From the sequence record OR699282.2: a stretch of DNA of 64,000 nt. The stretch is one strand, 5' to 3'. This DNA is from Escherichia phage BAU.Micro_ELP-22. Positions within the stretch are counted from its first letter, which is position 1; every line of letters begins with the position of its first letter. Positions 21,056 to 53,755 of this stretch are shown here, piece by piece. The notes below the pieces were generated by a model. The model was not told the origin of the DNA, did not search any database, and saw only the letters and a list, made by a program, of their open reading frames with translations. Position numbers and translations under genes: made by a program.

Positions 21056-21451
21056 ATGAAGAACAATATTGGAACTTCAATAATTAAACCACTTTCTTAT
21101 TACCTTGAAAAATTTAGAAGCACAAATGGTAATAAATTTAATAATATATTTCAGTTCTCTCATAAAGAATATATTACAATTGATCATTTTTCAAAGAAAC
21201 TAATGTATGTAAATGATAATAGTCATATTATTAAATTATCATTCGATATTGAGTTAGATAAATTAACATTTACGGAATACATTAATCAAAAAACTTCTTT
21301 TTTATGTCAATACAATAGGAAAGTATATAGTAATATTTCTATGTATCTAAATGATGAATATCACTTTCAACAATCTACAATAGAAGAAGTATTGTTCAGT
21401 ACTGAAGAATTAAAAGAACTATATTACTGGTATAATTATTTCACATCTTGA
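21056..21451 (+). CDS. C-terminal FFQ-x-S motif family member
   Basis: 131 aa; NDEYHFQQSTIEE; GAGGA RBS. Confidence 0.55.
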   Translation: MKNNIGTSIIKPLSYYLEKFRSTNGNKFNNIFQFSHKEYITIDHFSKKLMYVNDNSHIIKLSFDIELDKLTFTEYINQKTSFLCQYNRKVYSNISMYLNDEYHFQQSTIEEVLFSTEELKELYYWYNYFTS

Positions 21452-21506
21452 CATTATTGTGGGTTTATCCTACAATACATGATGATGCTGCATTGAGGAT
21501 AAATTT

Positions 21507-21917
21507 ATGAGTTTAGATTTACACAATGAACTAAAATATTTTTTAGATTTGGACATATCAGAATTGAACCACCACGTCAATCATATGACTAGTACTGTAT
21601 GGTGGTCTAATGATCAAGACGACCCAATTATCCAACTAAGTGATGAATCGTCAATTATGCGATTTTATAAGATTAATTATAAAACGAACATCAAGATCAC
21701 ATATGTACCATACAAAAACATACTACTAGTCGAAACACTTAATCCAAGTTCTTTATTAAAAATCACCGATTTAGATACATTACAAACAAGTGAATCTTTA
21801 TTCCAACGTTCATTAGTTGATGATCTTGGTGGTATTACTTTTGAAGATATATTACAATTGAAGAATATGTATAGTGAATTGTTGGAGATTAAAAACACTT
21901 TAGTAATGGGGAATTGA
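21507..21917 (+). CDS. C-terminal FFQ-x-S motif family member
   Basis: 136 aa; TSESLFQRSLVDD. Confidence 0.55.
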   Translation: MSLDLHNELKYFLDLDISELNHHVNHMTSTVWWSNDQDDPIIQLSDESSIMRFYKINYKTNIKITYVPYKNILLVETLNPSSLLKITDLDTLQTSESLFQRSLVDDLGGITFEDILQLKNMYSELLEIKNTLVMGN

Positions 21918-21918
21918 T

Positions 21919-22323
21919 ATGGTAAGTTTACTAGATATTGATAATACCAGTTTAGTGCTGGTGAAAAAAGGTTTAATTCCAAATTCTAAAAAAATTGATT
22001 ATGCTGTTATTGAAACAAATATTGGAAATATCTGGTACGACTCTGAAAGGGATATTGTGTTTAGCTGTGTAGACAGTGATCGTTCTGAATGTTGTAGAGT
22101 CGGTCATGACGGACAATTTGTTTTTGAATTTCGTTATTGGAAGGACGCAAAATTTCACCAAGAACTGGTTGCTTTGTCAAATGAACTATATACAGAAGAA
22201 TCGTTCTTCATGGCTAGTACTATTAATGATTTTGGTTCAGTTACATTTGAGTACTATAAAAAAATATACGCACTATCCAGAGAAGTTATGAAAATTATCA
22301 GAACTGCTGAAGGTAAAGAATAA
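21919..22323 (+). CDS. C-terminal FFQ-x-S motif family member
   Basis: 134 aa; TEESFFMASTIND. Confidence 0.55.
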   Translation: MVSLLDIDNTSLVLVKKGLIPNSKKIDYAVIETNIGNIWYDSERDIVFSCVDSDRSECCRVGHDGQFVFEFRYWKDAKFHQELVALSNELYTEESFFMASTINDFGSVTFEYYKKIYALSREVMKIIRTAEGKE

Positions 22324-22324
22324 C

Positions 22325-22702
22325 ATGACTACTATATATGATATTTTGGGTGTTCTGAGTAGAAATATAGATGATGATTTTGTTATTGTTCAAGATACTA
22401 GAAATACATTTCAACTACCAATAGGTTCACCAGATAGGTTAATTTTTAATAGATACTCAAATGAACTAACTTACATCCATGATGGGATTGCAATTGTATC
22501 AGTTTCTATAAACGACTATACAATACGATATGTATATGACTTCAACGATTATTGTACAAGAATCCACAGTATTGATATTTCCGAAGAGGAACTATTCCAA
22601 TTGTCATTGATTGAGAAAAATGTAATAGGAATTACAGAAATTGGTATTATTAAAAAAGCATTAAACTATACAAATATAAGAATTAATGGTGGGTGCGGAT
22701 GA
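22325..22702 (+). CDS. C-terminal FFQ-x-S motif family member
   Basis: 125 aa; SEEELFQLSLIEK. Confidence 0.55.
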   Translation: MTTIYDILGVLSRNIDDDFVIVQDTRNTFQLPIGSPDRLIFNRYSNELTYIHDGIAIVSVSINDYTIRYVYDFNDYCTRIHSIDISEEELFQLSLIEKNVIGITEIGIIKKALNYTNIRINGGCG

Positions 22703-23154
22703 ATGTTGACGAAATAAAAAATCATTTTGAAATTGCAATGTCATGTGAATTTGACACACAACGTGTTCATGACCCGAAAGAACATATACGAATTTGTTGT
22801 GAATTGTCAGATGATTGTAATATTTTTATTGGAAAAACCTATGACATGATCGATCTTTCATGTATAGATCCATTGGAAAGAAAAACAAAATATTTATATC
22901 TGTACAACACAACATCAGATACGATTGCAATACAACTAATATCAACCACAACATCCCAAAGTTATTATAACATAACTGAGGTTAGTAGTTTAACGTTAAC
23001 CGAAGAAGGATTCTTTCAACAATCGCTTATTCGTGAAATTGGTGTTAGTTATGATGAGTTAAATGTATTAGTAGATTGTTTCGAAAAATTAAGTACTTTT
23101 GTATTATCCCTTTTTAATATACAGTCGCAAAATCCAATGGTGGTGAAATGCTAA
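22693..23154 (+). CDS. C-terminal FFQ-x-S motif family member
   Basis: 153 aa; TEEGFFQQSLIRE. Confidence 0.55.
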   Translation: MRMNVDEIKNHFEIAMSCEFDTQRVHDPKEHIRICCELSDDCNIFIGKTYDMIDLSCIDPLERKTKYLYLYNTTSDTIAIQLISTTTSQSYYNITEVSSLTLTEEGFFQQSLIREIGVSYDELNVLVDCFEKLSTFVLSLFNIQSQNPMVVKC

Positions 23155-23588
23155 ATCCAAGTAAATTTCTCCACTTACTTTCGATAACATCAATACCGGA
23201 TCTTACCAGTGAAACTAATGAATATCGTGAAGCTGGGGTGGTGTCTATGGAACTCGATACATTTGACCACAAATGCTATGTGACATATGACCCACCGCGT
23301 TATGGTAAAGAACATTCTTCTTTTATTTTTGTATTCGTATACACTGTATATGATAATACAACACTTGATGATGTTTGTATTGACACTTACGAAATTTGTG
23401 ATAATATCATAACTGATGACAACAATAACTCATTTGATATGTCACTATATAACACAGAAGAATCGTTGTTTCAACTTAGTACTGTTATTGATGCACCATC
23501 ATTAGAAGATATAAAACAATTTCAAGAACATCTTGACGCAGTTCGTGAGATGTTCTATAATCATTATCCAGAAGTAGAGTTCAATTAA
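23148..23588 (+). CDS. C-terminal FFQ-x-S motif family member
   Basis: 146 aa; TEESLFQLSTVID. Confidence 0.55.
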   Translation: MLNPSKFLHLLSITSIPDLTSETNEYREAGVVSMELDTFDHKCYVTYDPPRYGKEHSSFIFVFVYTVYDNTTLDDVCIDTYEICDNIITDDNNNSFDMSLYNTEESLFQLSTVIDAPSLEDIKQFQEHLDAVREMFYNHYPEVEFN

Positions 23589-23602
23589 CTAAAGGTAATA
23601 AG

Positions 23603-23863
23603 ATGACTAAAGTAGTTCGTAAACGCCACATGATGAACATGGATGAATTTCGCACATTTGACAAATATCGTACTATGTTTCGTATGCTTTCACAGGGCCG
23701 TCCAATCGTCATTGTAACAGAGAATTACATGTCACCTGAGATTATGTTTGGTAATTATGAAAAGGTCTTCATGTTGTACGTGAAGCGTGGATTACTTACA
23801 ATCAAGACATTAGCTGAAGCAACTGATGAAGATATGGATGGTGATAATACCTTTACCATGTGA
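23603..23863 (+). CDS. Hypothetical protein
   Basis: 86 aa; AAGG RBS. Confidence 0.5.
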   Translation: MTKVVRKRHMMNMDEFRTFDKYRTMFRMLSQGRPIVIVTENYMSPEIMFGNYEKVFMLYVKRGLLTIKTLAEATDEDMDGDNTFTM

Positions 23864-23938
23864 GGAAATATATGTCTGAAAAGCCAAAAGAACCATTAGA
23901 TCGTGATGATGATTTTTATGACGAACGATATGGAGATG

Positions 23939-24193
23939 ATGATGAGTGAACATAGTGCTGTGCTTAAAAAGATTTTAAAGGAACTTGATGGTGAATTTAA
24001 TGTCACAGAAGAAGAATATCAGCATTGGAAGAAAGGTTTTGAACAACTAACCGAGTATGATAAAGTGTTCAATATGATTGGCGTAATTAGCCAGTATTTA
24101 CTCGGTGGAGGACGTGCAAGTGCTTCAATTCTGGCATCTGCAATCATCTGTACATCACGATGGTGTGATGAAAAAAGTTTGGAAGATTTCTAA
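23939..24193 (+). CDS. Hypothetical protein
   Basis: about 84 aa; start ambiguous among a run of ATGs 23930-23942 after GGAG. Confidence 0.45.
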   Translation: MMSEHSAVLKKILKELDGEFNVTEEEYQHWKKGFEQLTEYDKVFNMIGVISQYLLGGGRASASILASAIICTSRWCDEKSLEDF

Positions 24194-24245
24194 ATAAGAT
24201 GCTATAATATATTATAGTACCTTAACAATATAAAAAGGATTTTAT

Positions 24246-25106
24246 ATGAAACCTATCCGAATACTTTCTCTTTTTAATGGAATGAGTGTGGGATATATGG
24301 CATTGCAAGATGCGGGTATCCCAGTTGAAAAATATTATTCATCCGAAATTGATAAGTACGCAATAGCTGAATCTCAATCTAACTTTCCTGATATTATCCA
24401 ATTGGGTGATATAACTAAGTGGAGAGAATGGGATATTGAGTGGGACAAAATAGATTTATTAATGGGTGGTTTCCCATGCCAAGCCTGGTCAGTTGCAGGT
24501 AAACAGGGTGGTTTAAATGATATACGTGGGCAGTTATTTTTAGTAATGGTTGAAATTTTTGATCATATCAAAAGTCTCAATCCTAACTTGAAATTTCTGT
24601 TTGAAAATGTTAAAATGAAGGAAGATTTCAAAGAATACATTAATAGTATTTTAGGAATCACGCCAGTACTGATAAACTCCCAGCATTATACGCCTCACTT
24701 CAGGCAGAGATATTACTGGTACAGTACTGATAAGCTTTTTATACCACCTGCATTATCCAATGCACCTAAACTTCAAGATATTATTGAAGATGGTTGGTAC
24801 ACTGACAGAACCGCTTCGTACTGTATAGATGCTAACTATTTTAAAGGTGGTGATTGTAACCAGTACTTTAATAAATCCAGACGACAATTGGTGTTTCGTG
24901 ACCCAGTGATCAGTCGTCAATATCTATTAGAGAATGGCAAAAGAAATATTGACTATAGACACTTAAGTGTAGTAGAATGTTGTAAATTACAGGGTGTTCC
25001 TGAAGATTTCTTTAAAGTGTCTAGTAAGACACAAGCATACAAAATGCTTGGGAATGGATGGACTATGCCAGTTATATCACATTTACTAAGAGAGATATTC
25101 TTTTGA
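24246..25106 (+). CDS. DNA cytosine-5 methyltransferase
   Basis: 286 aa; motif I LSLFNGMSVG, motif IV GFPCQAWS, motif VI LFENV, C-terminal LGNGWTMPV. Confidence 0.8.
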   Translation: MKPIRILSLFNGMSVGYMALQDAGIPVEKYYSSEIDKYAIAESQSNFPDIIQLGDITKWREWDIEWDKIDLLMGGFPCQAWSVAGKQGGLNDIRGQLFLVMVEIFDHIKSLNPNLKFLFENVKMKEDFKEYINSILGITPVLINSQHYTPHFRQRYYWYSTDKLFIPPALSNAPKLQDIIEDGWYTDRTASYCIDANYFKGGDCNQYFNKSRRQLVFRDPVISRQYLLENGKRNIDYRHLSVVECCKLQGVPEDFFKVSSKTQAYKMLGNGWTMPVISHLLREIFF

Positions 25107-25588
25107 ACATAAACAAATACCAAACTTATATAAAACGTACAGAAAGTTTCAAACGGCTGGCTGTAAAATCTGAATTAGAATTTAATTTGTATTATCCTAA
25201 TATTGGTGATGAGGTATTTTATTGCTCTCATTCAAAGAATGGAACTTTACTTAAATCGGGTAAAGGAACTATTGTTGATATGACCGCAAATTTCAGAGGT
25301 AAACTTAATGTAATGTACAAAGTACAAGATTCAAGTACTGAGTGTATTCATGAAGTGATGCATAACATACCTGCATATCCAAAAGATTTTGTTCAGCTAA
25401 TATCTCGAAGGGAGAAACCTATGTTTTATTGTGGTTACGACAAATTAACCAAACAAATTATTCCTAATACTATGGGAAAATTTAAAAGTGATGTGAAATC
25501 TGAACTTGAAAAGAAATTTGGCACGTCATGGGAAACTGAAAACGAGTTTATCGAAATTCGTTTAATTGAAATTACTATACTTGAATAA
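25058..25588 (+). CDS. Hypothetical protein
   Basis: 176 aa; overlaps MTase 3' end by 49 nt, start uncertain. Confidence 0.45.
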   Translation: MDYASYITFTKRDILLNINKYQTYIKRTESFKRLAVKSELEFNLYYPNIGDEVFYCSHSKNGTLLKSGKGTIVDMTANFRGKLNVMYKVQDSSTECIHEVMHNIPAYPKDFVQLISRREKPMFYCGYDKLTKQIIPNTMGKFKSDVKSELEKKFGTSWETENEFIEIRLIEITILE

Positions 25589-25593
25589 TTACA

Positions 25594-25618
25594 AATCCAC
25601 GCATTGCGTGGATTTTTC
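25594..25618 (+). terminator. Rho-independent terminator
   Basis: atccacgc/gcgtggat hairpin followed by TTTT. Confidence 0.65.
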
Positions 25619-25630
25619 ATAGGTGCATAT

Positions 25631-26146
25631 ATGCCAATTCCTTATGTTAAAATTATTAATAATATTCTCGATTCATGGGAAGATGTTATTACTGGTAAAA
25701 AGCAACCATCACCAGTACATGCTTTATCTGGGAAACTTCAATTCAGAATGTCAAACCAAACTGAAACATTTAATAATCATGATATTTGCATTACATTAAA
25801 AACACCTATTAGTATTGTAATTAAAAAAAATAAAGATGATGAATTGACATTATCTATTGGTCGTGATAAAATCATTTTAAGTAATTTGTCTGAAGAAGAA
25901 TTCTTTCAAAGAAGTACTATTATCGATATGAAAGATTTCACATATGAATCATTGGTTGAACTCAATACACGTTTTAACGATATTCAGGAACGATTGCGAC
26001 CAATTCTTCGTATCGAAGAAGAAGCCTGGATTGAAAGTATTAGGAAGATGCAAGAAATGTTGAAAGAAAATATTAACAATCTGGGTAAAGCTACAATGGA
26101 ATTTGGTAAAACTTTTAAACTGAACTTTTCAAAGGATCGTAAATGA
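25631..26146 (+). CDS. C-terminal FFQ-x-S motif family member
   Basis: 171 aa from ATG 25631 (track start 25604 lies in the terminator); SEEEFFQRSTIID. Confidence 0.55.
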   Translation: MPIPYVKIINNILDSWEDVITGKKQPSPVHALSGKLQFRMSNQTETFNNHDICITLKTPISIVIKKNKDDELTLSIGRDKIILSNLSEEEFFQRSTIIDMKDFTYESLVELNTRFNDIQERLRPILRIEEEAWIESIRKMQEMLKENINNLGKATMEFGKTFKLNFSKDRK

Positions 26147-26598
26147 AAATTGATAATTTGATTCATGTTTTAGGATCTTTACATAAAATATTATCACATC
26201 TACATGAGATAAAGAAACTGGGATTTAACATCTCAAATTCAATTGAAACTACATTTAAATATCAATCAATTACTGGTGATGGTTATTACATAATCGAATA
26301 TACTTATGAAACCGATCCAGACTTCTATCCTCTTACGTTGAGAATTTATCCAACAAATCCGAGAGGAATTCACGACATATCATCAATTTCACTTGATCCA
26401 GATGGTGAAACGAGTATTGAATACAATAATGATTCAAAACCAGAATTTTACATTGATGATATTAAAATGATGTTCAACGATGAATATGTGTTCCAGCAAA
26501 GTACAGTGCATGATGTTGGAAGTACTAATGGACAATTTTGGAATACATGTTATTATCATATGATTGAAATTTGTAAATTACTAAAAGGTGATGATTAA
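26143..26598 (+). CDS. C-terminal FFQ-x-S motif family member
   Basis: 151 aa; NDEYVFQQSTVHD; ATGA overlap. Confidence 0.55.
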   Translation: MKIDNLIHVLGSLHKILSHLHEIKKLGFNISNSIETTFKYQSITGDGYYIIEYTYETDPDFYPLTLRIYPTNPRGIHDISSISLDPDGETSIEYNNDSKPEFYIDDIKMMFNDEYVFQQSTVHDVGSTNGQFWNTCYYHMIEICKLLKGDD

Positions 26599-26981
26599 TG
26601 AAATACAGCATTGAAGTACATTACACTACAGGGGACACTGAAACTGAAGATTCAGTTACCAATACATTGGATGTTCAATGGGAATCAAAGGATGAGGCAG
26701 TTGTAGCATTACAGTCTTTGAAAGAGCATTGGGTATTCTTTAAGAAACTCGATGATGCATATAGTAACGAACGTGCGACAATAATCGATGAAGCCAAACA
26801 TAAAGAATGGTTTGATCCAATGTCATGTGAATTCTCTTTCTTTGTAAAAATTGGAGATAAAAAAATTCCAGTACGAACACCGTGGAACGGCTACTTTGAA
26901 ACTCTTCATAATGCACGAGTTGTCGCTGTTGATAATCCTGAGCAAATCGATTTCGATTCATTGGACTGGAAAAAACTATGA
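26598..26981 (+). CDS. Hypothetical protein
   Basis: 127 aa; TAATG overlap. Confidence 0.5.
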   Translation: MKYSIEVHYTTGDTETEDSVTNTLDVQWESKDEAVVALQSLKEHWVFFKKLDDAYSNERATIIDEAKHKEWFDPMSCEFSFFVKIGDKKIPVRTPWNGYFETLHNARVVAVDNPEQIDFDSLDWKKL

Positions 26982-27421
26982 CAGTACTGCACCAATTGAA
27001 GAAGGTTAAGCATCCAGTTGTATACGAGGATTGGAAACGACAGAAGTTGATGGGTGATTTTTATTTCCCAAAATCTAAAGTTCTTGCGAATTCAAGATGT
27101 ACATATTTCAAACATAATGATAAAGATACAGTATTTGTTGAAATGGGTTTCAATCCATCAAATACAATGTTCAGTACTAACCAAACATTTTACAAATTTC
27201 ATATCCAAAAAGATTCATTTTCTATCATGATTTTAAAACTTTTCGTTGAAGATCTGCTATACCGTGGTGAAAGTGTTCCTTTATCATTAGTGGATATTCC
27301 TTATAATAATTTAGAGGAAATGTACTTCCAACAGTTGACAGTGCAAGAAAACTTCGGTATGATAGGACTTCAAGAGTTAGAGATGATTAAACAAATTCGT
27401 GATATCTACTTTAAGGAGTAA
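26978..27421 (+). CDS. C-terminal FFQ-x-S motif family member
   Basis: 147 aa; NLEEMYFQQLTVQE. Confidence 0.55.
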   Translation: MTVLHQLKKVKHPVVYEDWKRQKLMGDFYFPKSKVLANSRCTYFKHNDKDTVFVEMGFNPSNTMFSTNQTFYKFHIQKDSFSIMILKLFVEDLLYRGESVPLSLVDIPYNNLEEMYFQQLTVQENFGMIGLQELEMIKQIRDIYFKE

Positions 27422-33962: not shown

Positions 33963-34298
<336 letters not shown>

Positions 34299-34299
34299 A

Positions 34300-34482
34300 A
34301 TGACACACGAAGAATGGATGTCCAAACAGCATAAAGAACATGACTGCTTTGGGAATGGCATTCGTCAGGTACATTATGATATATTAAGAGATGAAAATCT
34401 TTTCAGGTCATATGTTTTGGATACCAGAAAACCCTGGTTTATATGCGAACTGGCATTTAGAAAGTCAAATAATCAAAACTAA
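34300..34482 (+). CDS. MTHEEW mini-protein family member 3
   Basis: 60 aa; MTHEEWM...WFICELAFRK. Confidence 0.5.
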   Translation: MTHEEWMSKQHKEHDCFGNGIRQVHYDILRDENLFRSYVLDTRKPWFICELAFRKSNNQN

Positions 34483-34498
34483 ACAAGGAATACAAAAA

Positions 34499-34717
34499 AT
34501 GGAAACAACTTTATTAGAAGTTATTCAATCATTAAAACCTGAAGATGAGGTTCAAGTACTACTACATGGTTATCGTGTAAAAGGTACTGTGGTTTTAGTC
34601 AATGATACAACATTGGTTATTACAGAAACAAACCCATATGATAGTAATCAACTTGCCAATATCCATATCGATATCACTGGAATTATTGGTGTCGGTGTAT
34701 CTAAAACACTTGCATAA
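34499..34717 (+). CDS. Hypothetical protein
   Basis: 72 aa from ATG with AGGAA RBS. Confidence 0.45.
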   Translation: METTLLEVIQSLKPEDEVQVLLHGYRVKGTVVLVNDTTLVITETNPYDSNQLANIHIDITGIIGVGVSKTLA

Positions 34718-34770
34718 ATCATTAATTCATTATATAATGATTATCACTGGTTCTAGATGAGGATAATATT

Positions 34771-35043
34771 ATGCATTTTGAAAAATTCAACGTAAATCGT
34801 AACACACGCATTGAAGTTCTTTATGAAACTCAAGACACCATTAGTATTCGTACAAGTAGTGGGGATGTATATCATGACTGTACGATTGGCTGGGAACAGG
34901 GAAGAACGCGTAGTGCAGTATTTGATAATTATCGCTTTTATCAAGGAGACACTACGATTTGGCCTGAATACGTAGAAGATATTGCGTTTGAAGATGAACA
35001 TAAAGATGAATTTATCAAATTTAATCCTCAAACTGAATCATAA
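34771..35043 (+). CDS. Hypothetical protein
   Basis: 90 aa; GAGGA RBS. Confidence 0.5.
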   Translation: MHFEKFNVNRNTRIEVLYETQDTISIRTSSGDVYHDCTIGWEQGRTRSAVFDNYRFYQGDTTIWPEYVEDIAFEDEHKDEFIKFNPQTES

Positions 35044-35048
35044 ATAAT

Positions 35049-35176
<128 letters not shown>

Positions 35177-35180
35177 AAAT

Positions 35181-35282
<102 letters not shown>

Positions 35283-35287
35283 AAACC

Positions 35288-35448
35288 ATGACGCATGAAG
35301 AATGGATGAATGACATTAATTTTAGATATTCGGGTATCGGTAAATGGCTAAAGTATCATTGGGAATTCATTTCAGAGCCACATATGTATGATAAACTTAT
35401 CAACGATCCAGCATATGAAATGTACTTAATTGAACTACTGGTACGAAT

Positions 35449-35452
<4 letters not shown>
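35288..35452 (+). CDS. MTHEEW mini-protein family member 4
   Basis: 54 aa; MTHEEWMNDINF...; below ORF-track threshold. Confidence 0.4.
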
Positions 35453-35614
<162 letters not shown>

Positions 35615-35624
35615 AAAAAAAAGA

Positions 35625-36033
<409 letters not shown>

Positions 36034-36037
<4 letters not shown>

Positions 36038-36061
36038 CTAAATAATTCAGTACTGTATAAT
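36034..36061 (+). promoter_or_regulatory. Early promoter, conserved-spacer family
   Basis: TTGACT-aaataattcagtactg-TATAAT; drives tRNA-Gly. Confidence 0.7.
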
Positions 36062-36063
36062 GC

Positions 36064-36147
<84 letters not shown>

Positions 36148-36167
36148 TTAATAATTCAAAGGTGAAT

Positions 36168-36344
36168 ATGATGCTATCACACAAAACAGCAACTGTTGAA
36201 AATATTGAATCATTATCTGCACAAGAATTGGTTGACAAAATTAAAGAAGTATGTGATAATAATGGCATTGATATGAATGATACATTTATTAGTGTAGGTT
36301 ATGGTGATTTAGAAATTCAATCTAAAACACTATATTATACTTGA
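36168..36344 (+). CDS. Small hypothetical protein
   Basis: 58 aa from ATG with AAGGTGA RBS. Confidence 0.45.
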   Translation: MMLSHKTATVENIESLSAQELVDKIKEVCDNNGIDMNDTFISVGYGDLEIQSKTLYYT

Positions 36345-36362
36345 CTAAATAGTTCAGTACCG
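36341..36362 (+). repeat. Degenerate copy of conserved-spacer promoter (has -35 and spacer, lacks -10)
   Basis: TTGACTaaatagttcagtacc followed by GAAGGAG rather than TATAAT. Confidence 0.5.
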
Positions 36363-36400
36363 AAGGAGATTAATATGTTTAAAGATGAACGTCCAGATTT

Positions 36401-36441
<41 letters not shown>

Positions 36442-36448
36442 GAATTCC

Positions 36449-36788
36449 ACAATCAGACGTATATGGTGTAAGTTACGTCGATGCAATCCAGAACAAGATC
36501 TCTGGTACTCTAGGAAGTGGTGAATGTTAACCTAGACGGGTTTGATAATTGGACGATAGGCAATTATTACTTGACTAGCAGGTTGAAACTAGAGGTGACA
36601 GTCCTTCACCAAACTGGAAAACCGGATGGACTTTTATTTAAAAGGGTAAGGCGTGGAAATATGTTTACAGAAGTTGCTTTTAGTAGCCTGTACGCCCCAC
36701 GTCAAGGTAGCCGAAAGGCAAGTTAAAACGGATGGTTATAAAGCTGAATTAACAGCGGCGTTTAAAAGCGTCACCATCCATTTTTTTT
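36449..36788 (+). ncRNA. Candidate structured non-coding RNA (about 340 nt) within the tRNA island
   Basis: Starts at predicted TSS of promoter 36413; GC-enriched versus flanks; ends in ggatggt...caccatcc stem plus T8; only internal ORF has GTG start. Confidence 0.35.
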
Positions 36789-36804
36789 AATTAAAGTTGG
36801 TGAT

Positions 36805-37194
<390 letters not shown>

Positions 37195-37210
37195 TATTAA
37201 GTATTGATAT

Positions 37211-37456
<246 letters not shown>

Positions 37457-37461
37457 CTAAA

Positions 37462-37626
<165 letters not shown>

Positions 37627-37650
37627 ACGAAATTACAATAGGAAATTAAA

Positions 37651-37836
37651 ATGCAACTTTTAATTCTTTCAATATTGTATATTATTATAATGGTTCCGAT
37701 ATCAATACGTTTAATTACAGTTGAACGATTTTTATCGAAACATGGAAATAGATCTATGATCTTTGTACCAATCGGGTTGATATTGTTTGGTATATTTTCA
37801 TTTATAATGGGAATTAACGCTACATTCATTTCATAG
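37651..37836 (+). CDS. Small membrane protein
   Basis: 61 aa; two hydrophobic helices; AGGAAA RBS. Confidence 0.45.
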   Translation: MQLLILSILYIIIMVPISIRLITVERFLSKHGNRSMIFVPIGLILFGIFSFIMGINATFIS

Positions 37837-37845
37837 GAAACAAAT

Positions 37846-38103
<258 letters not shown>

Positions 38104-38111
38104 GAATTTAA

Positions 38112-38513
38112 ATGAAAAAGAATGACTTGATCAAAATGCTTCAAGAGATTGACGGCAATCCAGAGATTGTTATTTGGAATGGATATGTCGATGATTATAT
38201 GAACATCGAAAAAGGCTTGACTAAAATCACTCTAGTCAAAGAAACTGAACAGTTCCTTCTGGAAGCATTAGTGCACGAATGGTGCAAACGTAACAATACA
38301 TTCGACATTCCAGAAGATCAACGAACTAAGATTGCAGAACGTGCTAAAGAACTGCATAAGAAACGCGAATACGATTTCCAGAACCCACATGTTACTGAAG
38401 ACGAATTCAATCACTGGTACGGTAAAAAGAAATTGACAAAGTATGTCCTTTCACCTAAACTACGTGGTAAGACTTCACTTGGTGTATTCAACGCCGCAGA
38501 CTTAAACTACTAG
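38112..38513 (+). CDS. Hypothetical protein (paralogue of next gene)
   Basis: 133 aa; N-terminus MKKNDLIKMLQEIDGNPEIV parallels next ORF. Confidence 0.55.
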   Translation: MKKNDLIKMLQEIDGNPEIVIWNGYVDDYMNIEKGLTKITLVKETEQFLLEALVHEWCKRNNTFDIPEDQRTKIAERAKELHKKREYDFQNPHVTEDEFNHWYGKKKLTKYVLSPKLRGKTSLGVFNAADLNY

Positions 38514-38522
38514 CGGGTATTA

Positions 38523-39071
<549 letters not shown>

Positions 39072-39073
39072 TA

Positions 39074-39130
<57 letters not shown>

Positions 39131-39143
39131 AGTAAGAGTAAAA

Positions 39144-39316
<173 letters not shown>

Positions 39317-39328
39317 TATCTTACTTCT

Positions 39329-39407
<79 letters not shown>

Positions 39408-39424
39408 CAAAATAAAGGTACACT

Positions 39425-52966: not shown

Positions 52967-53755
52967 ATGAGCACTATAGATGAACTGATTCGACGGAATT
53001 CAAAATATTACCAACCATCAGAAATTGTAGGTAACATTACCAAATCAGAGTTTGGTCCAAATACTCGAAAACTCATTCATGTAATGTCACGTGATGGCTT
53101 TAAATGTGATTGTTGTGGTGAATCAAATGTAGTATTCACTTTACACAAGCACAGTACTAAAGAACGTTATAAATTCAGACCTTATGTACTTAAAGGGAAA
53201 CGCCTTGTACGCATGACGTTAGACCATAATGTACTGGACTGTCTTCAGGGCGGTAATGATAAAGAGAACATGACTGCACTGTGTGAAGATTGTAACGCAT
53301 TACGCCAGCATAAGTTTGCTGAATACAGTGAGTTTAAACACTGGTATCATAACGCGGATCGTTCAATCGAGCCTGACGTTAACTACTGCTTCATTGAGTA
53401 CATTAAGAATGCCAAAGATACATACATTCTTAAATCAATGTCACCTATTACCGTGTTTCCTGAGAACCTATTCACTACATTAAAGAATAGTTTTATTGTA
53501 GGTGATATTGATGCATTCAAGTATTTTGACAAAGGTGCAAAACATTTTGAAATTCAATGTCTTAGTACTGCACTATGTGAACTCATTAAAATTTACATAA
53601 AAGAGTATTTGGGTATTGACAATGTACGTGTACCAGAGTATACTTTTTCTATTGAATTCGATTGTGAATCAATCAAAGAGTTTGGAATTCTTTTCAATAA
53701 ACAAATAGAACTTGCAATTCAAAACGAAATCAAGTACTATACTACTAACATTTAA
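52967..53755 (+). CDS. HNH endonuclease (probable free-standing homing endonuclease)
   Basis: 262 aa; Cys cluster FKCDCCGE; HNH core TLDHNVLDCLQGGNDKENMTALCEDCNALRQH. Confidence 0.7.
   Translation: MSTIDELIRRNSKYYQPSEIVGNITKSEFGPNTRKLIHVMSRDGFKCDCCGESNVVFTLHKHSTKERYKFRPYVLKGKRLVRMTLDHNVLDCLQGGNDKENMTALCEDCNALRQHKFAEYSEFKHWYHNADRSIEPDVNYCFIEYIKNAKDTYILKSMSPITVFPENLFTTLKNSFIVGDIDAFKYFDKGAKHFEIQCLSTALCELIKIYIKEYLGIDNVRVPEYTFSIEFDCESIKEFGILFNKQIELAIQNEIKYYTTNI

What the first reader, a model, noticed from the sequence alone, without database searches (positions are those of the whole stretch)
24246..25106. Orphan DNA cytosine-5 methyltransferase with no adjacent restriction gene
Motifs I, IV (PCQ), VI (ENV) and the C-terminal GNGW block are present. 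No endonuclease is adjacent, so it is probably a protective anti-restriction methylase. It would be unusual if the phage also replaced cytosine with a modified base, as T4 does; hydroxymethylase genes are not in this window.
Basis: partly seen in the sequence, partly recalled or inferred. Interest (0 to 1): 0.5.

Follow-up and report, generated by a model that had tools for sequence, protein, structure and literature searches.

The report
Solitary phage DNA cytosine-5 methyltransferase gene
This is an intact, stand-alone DNA cytosine methylase gene of a giant E. coli phage; it is already annotated in more than 30 near-identical phage genomes, so the finding is correct but ordinary, and its target sequence is still unknown.

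Summary
The ORF at 24246-25106 (+, 286 aa) is a complete DNA cytosine-5 methyltransferase. Pfam PF00145 gives E=2.9e-38, and motifs I, IV (P77-C78-Q79), VI (E120-N121-V122), VIII, IX and X are all present. It is under purifying selection (dN/dS about 0.15).

The window comes from an Asteriusvirus-type jumbo coliphage, 99.6% identical to vB_EcoM_E9.1 and phAPEC6. The same gene is annotated there, and two papers already read it as "protective methylation".

No flanking ORF matches a nuclease in Pfam, PHROGs or PADLOC. Three distant homologues also sit alone in phage-like contigs. So "orphan" holds as far as sequence can show.

The target is unknown. Published digests of a relative's virion DNA argue against CpG, Dcm-type or AGCT methylation and against wholesale cytosine replacement.

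Two things seen in passing are more interesting than the gene:
- The lineage has no GCGC site at all in 352 kb and lacks nearly all GC-rich palindromic hexamers.
- The palindrome (C)AGTACT(G) is over-represented 9- to 46-fold.

One orthologue (UE-S1) carries an intein exactly at the catalytic cysteine.

Verdict: already known, low interest.

The parts
24246..25106 (+). CDS of the 286-aa DNA cytosine-5 methyltransferase (stop codon included)
24264..24293 (+). Motif I, SAM-binding loop LSLFNGMSVG (residues 7-16; F10 and G12 invariant)
   Evidence: Sequence; alignment A1; aligned to DNMT3 LSLFDGIATG.
24465..24491 (+). Motif IV GGFPCQAWS; the catalytic nucleophile Cys78 is codon 24477-24479
   Evidence: Sequence. 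P77 and C78 invariant in 38 homologues. Aligned with DNMT3 GGSPCNDLS. In the UE-S1 orthologue an intein sits exactly between P77 and C78.
24603..24611 (+). Motif VI E120-N121-V122
   Evidence: Sequence; invariant in A1.
24702..24710 (+). Motif VIII R153-Q154-R155
   Evidence: Sequence; R153 and R155 invariant in A1.
24723..24956 (+). Short target-recognition region (residues about 160-237). It has a conserved core DR.(K/A)SYCIDANY.KGG...KSRRQ (187-214) followed by a hypervariable segment (215-237).
   Evidence: Alignment A1. No significant match of this region to the recognition region of any solved methylase. HMMER aligns residues 186-216 with the DNMT3 TRD loop, with K200 opposite the TTKSNS lysine.
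24957..25013 (+). Motif IX RHLSVVECCKLQGVPEDFF
   Evidence: Sequence; R238, L240 and E244 invariant; matches HaeIII motif IX.
25050..25061 (+). Motif X G269-N270-G271-W272
   Evidence: Sequence; G269 and N270 invariant.
24179..24208 (+). Sigma-70-like promoter candidate TTGGAA-18 nt-TATAAT with a TG extended -10. It overlaps the last codons and stop of the upstream ORF and runs into the 52-bp gap before the gene. Unverified.
   Evidence: Consensus scan (the number of such sites in the region is not above chance). The stretch is identical in phAPEC6 and in UE-S1, which is 89% identical overall, but is not conserved in Mimasvirus.
24235..24239 (+). Ribosome-binding site AAGGA, 6 nt before the ATG
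   Evidence: Sequence. The A-rich/GGA block before the start codon is conserved in all six phages aligned.
25058..25588 (+). Downstream ORF of unknown function, not shown to belong to the methylase. It is 176 aa from the ATG at 25058. More likely it is 161 aa from the TTG at 25103, which overlaps the methylase stop as TTGA.
   Evidence: ORF list. Only four homologues were found, and the most distant starts at the position of residue 16. No Pfam or PADLOC hit. AF2 pLDDT 48.6, so the fold is undetermined.

Best explanation
The ORF encodes an active, solitary (orphan) SAM-dependent DNA cytosine-5 methyltransferase. It belongs to a very large, mostly phage-borne family with a compact, DNMT3-like build.

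Mechanism (inferred from the conserved motifs and the established chemistry of the family):
- The target cytosine is flipped out of the helix.
- Cys78 of the P-C-Q motif attacks C6, and Glu120 of E-N-V protonates N3.
- The methyl group of SAM, held by motifs I-III and X, goes to C5.
- R153 and R155 hold the flipped base, and the short region 160-237 reads a short DNA motif.

Biological role (inferred, not shown): the gene lies in a long run of small co-oriented accessory genes. Made during infection, the enzyme methylates replicating phage DNA at a short, still unknown motif, so that progeny DNA resists a subset of host type II restriction enzymes. This would complement the lineage's main anti-restriction strategy, which is the near-total removal of restriction sites from the genome.
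For: Identity:
- Pfam, NCBIfam and PHROG scores.
- All motifs present and invariant.

Maintained by selection:
- dN/dS 0.15 against the UE-S1 exteins and about 0.09 against Mimasvirus.
- Orthologues of 64-77% identity in three genera of Rak2-like jumbo phages, in partly syntenic positions.
- An intein at the catalytic Cys in UE-S1. Inteins typically sit in conserved active sites of proteins that matter (my background knowledge).

Orphan status:
- No nuclease family among ten neighbours in three libraries.
- Homologues in other phage-like contigs are also alone.

Context of heavy restriction pressure, counted in a relative's 352-kb genome:
- GCGC: 0 sites, against 161-297 expected.
- Sixteen GC-rich palindromic hexamers have 0 sites.
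- The Eco31I site GGTCTC has 0 sites.
- GGYRCC has about 0 sites.

The same reading has been published for phAPEC6 and CBB.
Against: - No experiment shows m5C in the virion DNA of any of these phages.
- Ten enzymes cut fEgEco12 DNA as predicted. From my knowledge of enzyme sensitivities, that rules out CpG, CCWGG and AGCT/GpC methylation and leaves the target open.
- Relatives with a 99% identical gene (slurp01, Sharanji) were isolated on E. coli K-12 MG1655, which carries McrA, McrBC and Mrr (my knowledge). Dense methylation in a purine-mC context should therefore be restricted there.
- The BASEL study found no simple link between phage methylase genes and restriction resistance (PMC8594841).
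- A genome that has already purged nearly all GC-rich palindromes has less obvious need of a methylase.
Confidence: 0.6

Rival explanations
1. The methylase writes a functional mark on the phage's own highly iterated palindrome (C)AGTACT(G) or its GTAC core. The role would be epigenetic or self-marking (replication, packaging, transcription or repair bias) rather than, or in addition to, anti-restriction. The analogy is the orphan methylases tied to the cyanobacterial HIP1 palindrome.
For: - AGTACT occurs 919 times in 352 kb (9x the dinucleotide expectation) and CAGTACTG 204 times (46x). It is the top 8-mer family, Poisson-spaced, and found in all codon phases and in non-coding DNA.
- The enrichment is present in all three genera whose methylase is at least 64% identical: Asteriusvirus, Mimasvirus and Alcyoneusvirus.
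- It is absent from phages with homologues of 51% identity or less (muut, L015, L017, L019), and from PA5oct, a relative whose methylase content was not checked.
- None of the ten enzymes used on fEgEco12 DNA tests GTAC or AGTACT.
- Precedent: HIP1 and orphan methylases (PMC4390886).
Against: - The co-occurrence is fully confounded with phylogeny: the same three genera share everything else too.
- The deamination neighbours AGTATT/AATACT are not depleted (1.22x), so there is no very-short-patch-repair signature.
- The phage also has adenine methylases that could equally target the motif.
- GGTACC and CGTACG are still completely avoided.
Confidence: 0.1
2. It is half of a phage-borne restriction-modification pair whose endonuclease is too divergent to recognise. 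The candidate is the overlapping downstream ORF at 25058/25103-25588. The pair would degrade host DNA or exclude other phages.
For: - Restriction endonucleases are notoriously hard to detect by sequence (my knowledge).
- The downstream ORF overlaps the methylase stop (TTGA) and has no known family.
- Its fold could not be determined (pLDDT 48.6).
- The phage genome has no GCGC at all, as expected if it carried a GCGC-cutting nuclease.
Against: - The downstream ORF is confined to close relatives (4 homologues). It has only weak partial similarity (30% over 84 aa) to the gene downstream in XbC2, while the methylase is conserved across genera.
- Its only moderately confident segment (residues 47-101; pLDDT about 55-73 in a model with mean pLDDT 48.6) forms a run of beta-strands, which hints at a small beta domain rather than a nuclease core.
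- Overlapping starts and stops are the rule throughout this gene array.
- A methylase for a site the genome lacks would not be needed.
- Homologues elsewhere are solitary.
Confidence: 0.04
3. It methylates RNA (for example phage or host tRNA), as DNMT2 does, rather than DNA.
For: - The phage carries many tRNA genes, seven of them in this window.
- One GenBank record labels the orthologue 'DNMT2'.
Against: - Sequence matches to DNMT2 are weak and N-terminal only (E 1e-7 to 1e-10), against full-length 1e-22 for DNMT3.
- The DNMT2-specific CFT motif is absent from the sequence (the motif is described in PMC3227630).
- The family is annotated and modelled as DNA methylase in all libraries.
Confidence: 0.03
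4. It is the first step of a post-replicative cytosine hypermodification (5mC, then 5hmC, then a further adduct), like the phage C5-methylase/TET pairs.
For: Phage C5-methylases coupled to TET dioxygenases exist and form phage-specific clades (PMC8256090).
Against: - No dioxygenase or glycosyltransferase among the neighbours or in the annotated window.
- No TET/JBP in 224 jumbo phages surveyed.
- HindIII and the other enzymes cut fEgEco12 DNA normally.
Confidence: 0.02

Closest known systems
Annotated orthologues in Asteriusvirus genomes: phAPEC6 gp123c (QDF13752.1), 121Q gene 91, the PBECO4 methyltransferase, E9.1 CDS0488 (XDC03709.1)
   Same: 99-99.3% identical protein, with the same length, position and neighbours. 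Already called DNA (cytosine) methyltransferase and read as protective methylation.
   Different: Nothing of substance. The window gene is simply another copy. Automated labels such as 'HaeIII' or 'DNMT2' in some records are best-hit names, not established specificities.
Orthologues in Mimasvirus (GAP32_390, CBB FDG95_gp580, XbC2_400) and Alcyoneusvirus (Muenster_435)
   Same: 64-77% identity over the full length, the same compact architecture, and partly conserved gene order. Their genomes show the same lack of GCGC and excess of AGTACT.
   Different: Different upstream region (the promoter-like element is not conserved). The flanking paralogous small genes are specific to Asteriusvirus.
Catalytic domain of animal DNMT3A/3B/3C
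   Different: No PWWP or ADD regulatory domains. No evidence of CpG specificity; digests of fEgEco12 DNA argue against it. The oligomeric state is unknown. It works like a minimal DNMT3 catalytic domain but is not a member of that family.
Classical type II m5C methylases M.HhaI (GCGC) and M.HaeIII (GGCC)
   Different: They have larger recognition domains with no detectable similarity to this one, and each has a cognate endonuclease. GCGC cannot be a self-protective target here because the genome has none.
Chlorella-virus M.CviAIV, noted as a DNMT3-like viral methylase without an N-terminal domain (PMC3227630)
   Same: A virus-encoded, compact methylase that groups with DNMT3 in phylogenies.
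   Different: Its host and virus type are unrelated.
Phage C5-methylase/TET pairs that methylate GpC (PMC8256090)
   Same: Phage-borne C5-methylases without an endonuclease, with short recognition motifs.
   Different: No TET partner here. GpC methylation is unlikely, because HindIII cuts a relative's DNA (the sensitivity is from my knowledge).

Membership tests
DNA (cytosine-5) methyltransferase, PF00145 / TIGR00675 | Score above the curated family thresholds | tested here: met
   PF00145: 132.5 bits against a cut-off of 22. TIGR00675: 120.1 against 100.65.
DNA (cytosine-5) methyltransferase, PF00145 / TIGR00675 | Motif IV Pro-Cys with the catalytic cysteine | tested here: met
   GGFPCQAWS. 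P77 and C78 are invariant in 38 homologues and align to the DNMT3 PC motif.
DNA (cytosine-5) methyltransferase, PF00145 / TIGR00675 | SAM-binding motif I (F-x-G-x-G type) plus the acidic residues of motifs II and III | tested here: met
   LFNGMSVG with F10 and G12 invariant; E34 and D55 invariant. This is the F-x-G-x-(S/A)-x-G form also seen in DNMT3.
DNA (cytosine-5) methyltransferase, PF00145 / TIGR00675 | Motifs VI (ENV), VIII (R-x-R), IX and X (GN..) in the canonical, non-permuted order | tested here: met
   E120-N121-V122, R153/R155, R238-L240-E244 and G269-N270 are all invariant and in order.
DNA (cytosine-5) methyltransferase, PF00145 / TIGR00675 | Transfer of a methyl group to C5 of cytosine in DNA | not testable with these tools
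   This needs expression of the ORF and methylation sequencing or mass spectrometry.
Orphan (solitary) methyltransferase | No cognate restriction endonuclease gene next to it | tested here: met
   Ten flanking ORFs have no nuclease family hit in Pfam, PHROGs or PADLOC. One neighbour (25058-25588) could not be modelled, so a very divergent nuclease is not strictly excluded.
Orphan (solitary) methyltransferase | Conserved without a partner in related and unrelated genomes | tested here: met
   The neighbours differ between Asteriusvirus and Mimasvirus while the methylase is kept. Three other contigs with homologues are phage-like and show no recognisable endonuclease.
Animal DNMT3 family | Catalytic domain of DNMT3 type (short recognition loop, best mutual similarity) | tested here: met
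Animal DNMT3 family | N-terminal chromatin-reading domains (PWWP, ADD) | tested here: not met
   The protein is 286 aa and the catalytic domain starts at residue 2.
Animal DNMT3 family | CpG target preference | tested here: inconclusive
   Not testable directly. Literature: fEgEco12 DNA is cut normally by SmaI, ClaI and NruI, which are CpG-methylation-sensitive (my knowledge). That argues against CpG methylation of virion DNA.
E. coli Dcm subfamily (NF007772, CCWGG) | Score above the subfamily cut-off | tested here: not met
   21.3 bits against a cut-off of 710. In addition SexAI, which Dcm methylation blocks (my knowledge), cuts fEgEco12 DNA.
Phage C5-methylase/TET hypermodification module | A TET/JBP-type dioxygenase gene beside the methylase | tested here: not met
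   No such family among the neighbours. None is annotated across the window, and none was found in the jumbo phages surveyed.
DNMT2 tRNA methyltransferases | [quoted passage not shown] | tested here: not met
   There is no CFT in the sequence. DNMT2 hits are only E 1e-7 to 1e-10 and N-terminal.

The most novel reading that the evidence does not exclude
The methylase is the writer for the lineage's highly iterated palindrome (C)AGTACT(G), which occurs about once per 380 bp and is 9- to 46-fold over-represented. That would give Rak2-like jumbo phages a HIP1-like 'self' epigenetic mark made by a minimal, DNMT3-like enzyme. It would also make this huge phage family a candidate sister group of the DNMT3 catalytic domain.
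Probability: 0.1. Interest if true: 0.6.

Novelty: already known. Interest (0 to 1): 0.2.

Why it matters
As it stands the finding matters little. It re-discovers a gene that is already annotated and already interpreted in the same way in the literature on phAPEC6, CBB and their relatives.

What would give it value is the missing piece, the target sequence. These phages have stripped their 350-kb genomes of GCGC and of almost every GC-rich palindrome, yet they keep a cytosine methylase under purifying selection. Knowing which motif it covers would show how site avoidance and methylation divide the work of evading restriction.

The enzyme is also a natural minimal version of the DNMT3 catalytic domain, from a family with thousands of phage members. 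That may be of use for questions about the origin of eukaryotic de novo methylases, or as a compact methylation tool.

Tried and rejected
1. **Specificity from solved structures.** A search with the recognition region alone found only the motif IX match to HaeIII (E 0.3). No inference is possible.

2. **Specificity from names.** The 120 best homologues carry only generic names. REBASE is not available.

3. **Specificity from R-M partners of homologues.** Three contexts were inspected; all were phage-like and without an endonuclease.

4. **Comparison with the characterised GpC-specific phage methylases.** The supplement with their sequences is not held.

5. **Structure of the downstream ORF, to test for a nuclease fold.** The alignment had only 5 sequences and the model had pLDDT 48.6. 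It is unusable, so no fold search was run on it.

6. **'GGCC is the protected site'.** This was considered because GGCC is not avoided as a 4-mer (O/E 0.80) while GCGC is at 0. It was rejected as unsupported for three reasons:
   - All four palindromic NGGCCN hexamers are absent, which by itself explains the 0.80.
   - GG(m5C)C would be a McrBC substrate in the K-12 hosts on which relatives were isolated (my knowledge).
   - The recognition region is unlike that of HaeIII.

7. **'GCGC was lost by methylation-driven deamination to GTAC'.** Rejected. The GTAC excess (about 700-1300 sites) far exceeds the missing GCGC sites (160-300), and a strict GCGC enzyme would not act on the intermediate GTGC.

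8. **A very-short-patch-repair signature around AGTACT.** The deamination neighbours are not depleted.

9. **AGTACT as a promoter or terminator element.** There is no positional preference relative to ORF starts.

10. **Literature searches.** Searches for restriction-site avoidance in jumbo phages and for CAGTACTG found nothing relevant.
Full report
**The observation.** It scores far above threshold as a DNA cytosine-5 methyltransferase:
- Pfam PF00145: E=2.9e-38, 132.5 bits against a cut-off of 22.
- NCBIfam TIGR00675: 120 bits against 100.65.
- phrog_116: E=5e-60.

- Motif I: LSLFNGMSVG.
- Motif IV: GGFPCQAWS, with Cys78 at 24477-24479.
- Motif VI: FENV.
- Motif X: GNGW.

Motif VIII (R153-Q-R155), motif IX and the acidic residues E34 and D55 are also there. 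I aligned the protein with 37 homologues of 49-86% identity. F10, G12, E34, D55, P77, C78, E120, N121, V122, R153, R155, G269 and N270 are invariant. Cys78 pairs with the catalytic Cys of DNMT3 in HMMER's alignment.

**Where the window comes from, and whether the gene is known.** The surrounding 4 kb is 99.6% identical to Escherichia phages vB_EcoM_E9.1 and phAPEC6. It is 97-99.5% identical to PBECO4, 121Q, SP27, slurp01, Sharanji and others. These are the Asteriusvirus jumbo coliphages of about 350 kb. The protein is 99-99.3% identical to genes already annotated there as DNA (cytosine) methyltransferase.

[quoted passage not shown] The CBB paper says the same for the Mimasvirus orthologue, and adds that no genes for glucosylated hydroxymethylcytosine were found (PMC5259590). 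The Sharanji paper repeats an automated 'HaeIII' label. So both the observation and the interpretation are already in the public record.

**Is it really alone?** The gene sits in a long array of small + strand genes, all 'hypothetical' in the phAPEC6 and E9.1 records. The ten nearest ORFs (21919-26981) have no nuclease hit in any library:
- Pfam gave only sub-threshold noise.
- PHROGs gave only families of unknown function.
- PADLOC, which includes restriction-enzyme models, gave none.

Two nuclease-labelled genes lie in the window but are not adjacent. One is an 'exonuclease' (E9.1) or 'putative metallopeptidase' (phAPEC6) ORF about 10 kb upstream. The other is an HNH ORF at 52967-53755, 28 kb downstream.

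The orthologues in GAP32, CBB and XbC2 (74-77% identity) keep one upstream neighbour (the 23603-23863 ORF is 46-49% identical there) but otherwise have different flanks. Three unrelated contigs with 44-51% homologues are phage-like (RecA, ligase, portal, Sir2) and show no endonuclease.

The one weak point is the ORF that overlaps the 3' end (25058-25588). It has only four homologues and no family. Its AlphaFold model is unusable (pLDDT 48.6), so I cannot exclude a very divergent nuclease. Two things argue against a partner role: its narrow distribution, and the beta-strand stretch that is the only moderately confident part of that model. The most distant homologue starts at the equivalent of residue 16. 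In the window that position is a TTG at 25103, overlapping the methylase stop as TTGA. This is probably the true start. Such overlaps are the norm in this gene array.

**What kind of methylase it is.** At 286 aa it is among the shortest of its class, because the recognition region between motifs VIII and IX is only about 75 residues. The best matches among solved structures are the catalytic domains of DNMT3A, 3B and 3C:
- By sequence, they match over the full length at E about 1e-22. HhaI and HaeIII reach about 4e-18; HhaI matches over motifs I-VI only, and HaeIII over residues 5-204 plus a second stretch.
- A model built on the 38-sequence alignment is confident (pLDDT 92.6, pTM 0.90).
- Its 50 best Foldseek hits in the PDB are all DNMT3 chains (TM 0.80, 24-28% identity).

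HMMER aligns the conserved core of the recognition region (DR.(K/A)SYCIDANY.KGG...KSRRQ, residues 187-214) with the DNMT3 TRD loop. The recognition region searched alone matches no solved methylase.

It is therefore a minimal DNMT3-like catalytic domain without the PWWP and ADD domains. It resembles DNMT3 but is not a member of that family. A DNMT3-like virus enzyme without an N-terminal domain (chlorella-virus M.CviAIV) has been noted before (PMC3227630).

The family is very large. Of the 8000 candidates that were scored, 7948 had E<=1e-10, and 808 phage records hold a match. These include 146-kb coliphages at about 50% identity and T4-like Klebsiella and Enterobacter phages at about 30%.

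**Is it functional?** The gene is under purifying selection: dN/dS is 0.15 against the UE-S1 orthologue and about 0.09 against Mimasvirus, where dS is near saturation. Its GC content matches the surroundings.

In UE-S1 the orthologous CDS is 626 aa. A 340-aa element with Hint and LAGLIDADG domains is inserted exactly between P77 and the catalytic C78...GGFP|CFPAGT...VVHN|CQAWS.... Removing it restores a 286-aa methylase. An intein at the active-site cysteine is typical of conserved, functionally important sites (my background knowledge).

A sigma-70-like element (TTGGAA-18-TATAAT with TG, 24179-24208) reaches from the end of the upstream ORF into the 52-bp gap before the gene. It is identical in phAPEC6 and in the 89%-identical UE-S1, but not in Mimasvirus. 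Such matches are not more frequent than chance in this AT-rich region, so I list it only as a candidate.

**What it most likely does.** The chemistry follows from the motifs and the established mechanism of the family: base flipping, attack of Cys78 on C6, methyl transfer from SAM, and help from Glu120 and Arg153/155.

The biological role is inferred. It would methylate replicating phage DNA at a short motif, to blunt some host restriction enzymes.

The target is unknown, but some limits can be set. [quoted passage not shown] From my knowledge of enzyme sensitivities, this has four consequences:
- It argues against CpG methylation (SmaI, ClaI and NruI are sensitive).
- It argues against Dcm-type CCWGG methylation (SexAI is sensitive).
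- It argues against AGCT or GpC methylation (HindIII is sensitive).
- It argues against any wholesale replacement of cytosine.

GCGC cannot be a self-protective target, because the genome has none (see below). Relatives with a 99% identical gene were isolated on K-12 MG1655, which has McrA, McrBC and Mrr (my knowledge). Dense purine-m5C methylation therefore seems unlikely unless the phage also inhibits those systems.

**Genome context seen in passing.** I concatenated the complete, unannotated genome of a relative that is 97.4% identical in the 4-kb test region (OR844650.1, 351,992 bp). The counts are striking:

| Site | Observed | Expected |
|---|---|---|
| GCGC | 0 | 161 (Markov), 297 (base composition) |
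| CTGCAG | 0 | 54 |
| CCATGG | 0 | 38 |
| GGTACC | 0 | 32 |
| GGATCC | 0 | 32 |
| TCCGGA | 0 | 24 |
| GCATGC | 0 | 19 |
| CAGCTG | 1 | 34 |

- Also at zero: GCTAGC, CGTACG, AGGCCT, CTCGAG, GTCGAC, TGGCCA, GAGCTC, CCGCGG, CGGCCG and GGGCCC.
- Non-palindromic sites are missing too: GGTCTC (Eco31I) 0, CTCCTC 0, CAGCTC 0, and GGCACC 1, so GGYRCC is in effect absent.
- GATC has O/E 0.50 and CATG 0.67.
- The window alone shows the same pattern: 0 GCGC against 19-49 expected.

This is restriction-site avoidance on an unusual scale, and it is probably the lineage's main defence.

In contrast, AGTACT occurs 919 times, 9x the dinucleotide expectation. CAGTACTG occurs 204 times (46x) and heads the list of over-represented 8-mers. 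The sites are Poisson-spaced, occur in all three codon phases and in non-coding DNA, and show no preference relative to ORF starts.

Both features (no GCGC, AGTACT excess) recur in Mimasvirus loci and in Klebsiella phage Muenster. They are absent from phage muut, from three metagenomic phage contigs with 44-51% methylase homologues, and from PA5oct.

The pattern thus tracks the Rak2-like lineage, which is also the clade whose methylase is at least 64% identical. That is compatible with a link between the methylase and the iterated palindrome, as for cyanobacterial HIP1 and its orphan methylases (PMC4390886). But the link is completely confounded with phylogeny, and there is no very-short-patch-repair signature. 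I give it about 10%.

**Comparison and verdict.** The gene is a bona fide member of the C5-methyltransferase family and an orphan by every test I could run. It is not a Dcm (21 bits against a cut-off of 710), not a DNMT2 (weak N-terminal matches only, no CFT motif), and not part of a TET module.

Novelty: already known. Interest: 0.2. The points worth someone's time are the unknown target of a DNMT3-like minimal enzyme, the complete absence of GCGC, and the (C)AGTACT(G) palindrome in these genomes.

Noticed in passing
whole window 1-64000; loci L007-L014 (OR844650.1, complete 352-kb relative); L003-L005; L021: GCGC is completely absent: 0 sites in the 64-kb window against 19-49 expected, and 0 in the 352-kb relative against 161-297 expected. 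Almost every GC-rich palindromic hexamer is absent as well, as are GGTCTC (Eco31I), CTCCTC, CAGCTC and GGYRCC. GATC has O/E 0.50 and CATG 0.67. GCGC is also at zero in the sampled Mimasvirus and Alcyoneusvirus loci, but not in muut or PA5oct. Whether this reflects host restriction pressure alone or a phage-encoded GCGC-specific activity is open.
   Followed up: partly
whole window (152 sites, e.g. 24665, 24723 and 24862 inside the methylase gene); L007-L014; L003-L005; L021: (C)AGTACT(G) is a highly iterated palindrome. AGTACT occurs 919 times in 352 kb (9x the dinucleotide expectation) and CAGTACTG 204 times (46x, the top 8-mer). The sites are Poisson-spaced, occur in all codon phases and in non-coding DNA, and have no preference relative to ORF starts. 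The motif is shared by Asteriusvirus, Mimasvirus and Alcyoneusvirus. It is absent from muut, PA5oct and the other contigs with methylase homologues. Its function is unknown, and I found no paper describing it.
   Followed up: partly
L020:1119-2999 (Escherichia phage UE-S1, ON568341.1): The orthologous methylase gene is 626 aa because a 340-aa intein (Hint plus LAGLIDADG homing-endonuclease domains) is inserted exactly between P77 and the catalytic C78 of the PCQ motif. Removing it restores a 286-aa methylase. TH47 (MT446416.1) matches in two places and may carry an insertion too.
   Followed up: partly
window 21056-23588 and 25631-27421: The methylase is embedded in a set of about 8 paralogous small ORFs (125-180 aa). 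They share a motif of the form EE.(F/L)FQ(Q/L)S(T)(V/I) near the C-terminal third, with weak pairwise BLAST similarity and cross-hits between PHROGs of unknown function. They are absent from the Mimasvirus loci.
   Followed up: partly
window 25058-25588: The start of the ORF downstream of the methylase is annotated inconsistently: 176 aa in E9.1, only 55 aa in phAPEC6. A 161-aa homologue suggests a TTG start at 25103, overlapping the methylase stop codon as TTGA.
   Followed up: partly
whole window; L007-L014: CpG is depleted (O/E 0.74-0.76) and TpG/CpA is in excess (1.23-1.25). This is the pattern that methylation-driven deamination would give, but it is also common in AT-rich genomes, and digests of a relative's virion DNA argue against CpG methylation.
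   Followed up: no
window 33985-39408: A cluster of seven tRNA genes (Gly x2, Ser x2, Met, Asn, Thr) lies downstream of the accessory-gene array. An HNH endonuclease ORF lies at 52967-53755, and the E9.1 annotation places a phage sigma-factor gene about 2 kb upstream of it.
   Followed up: no
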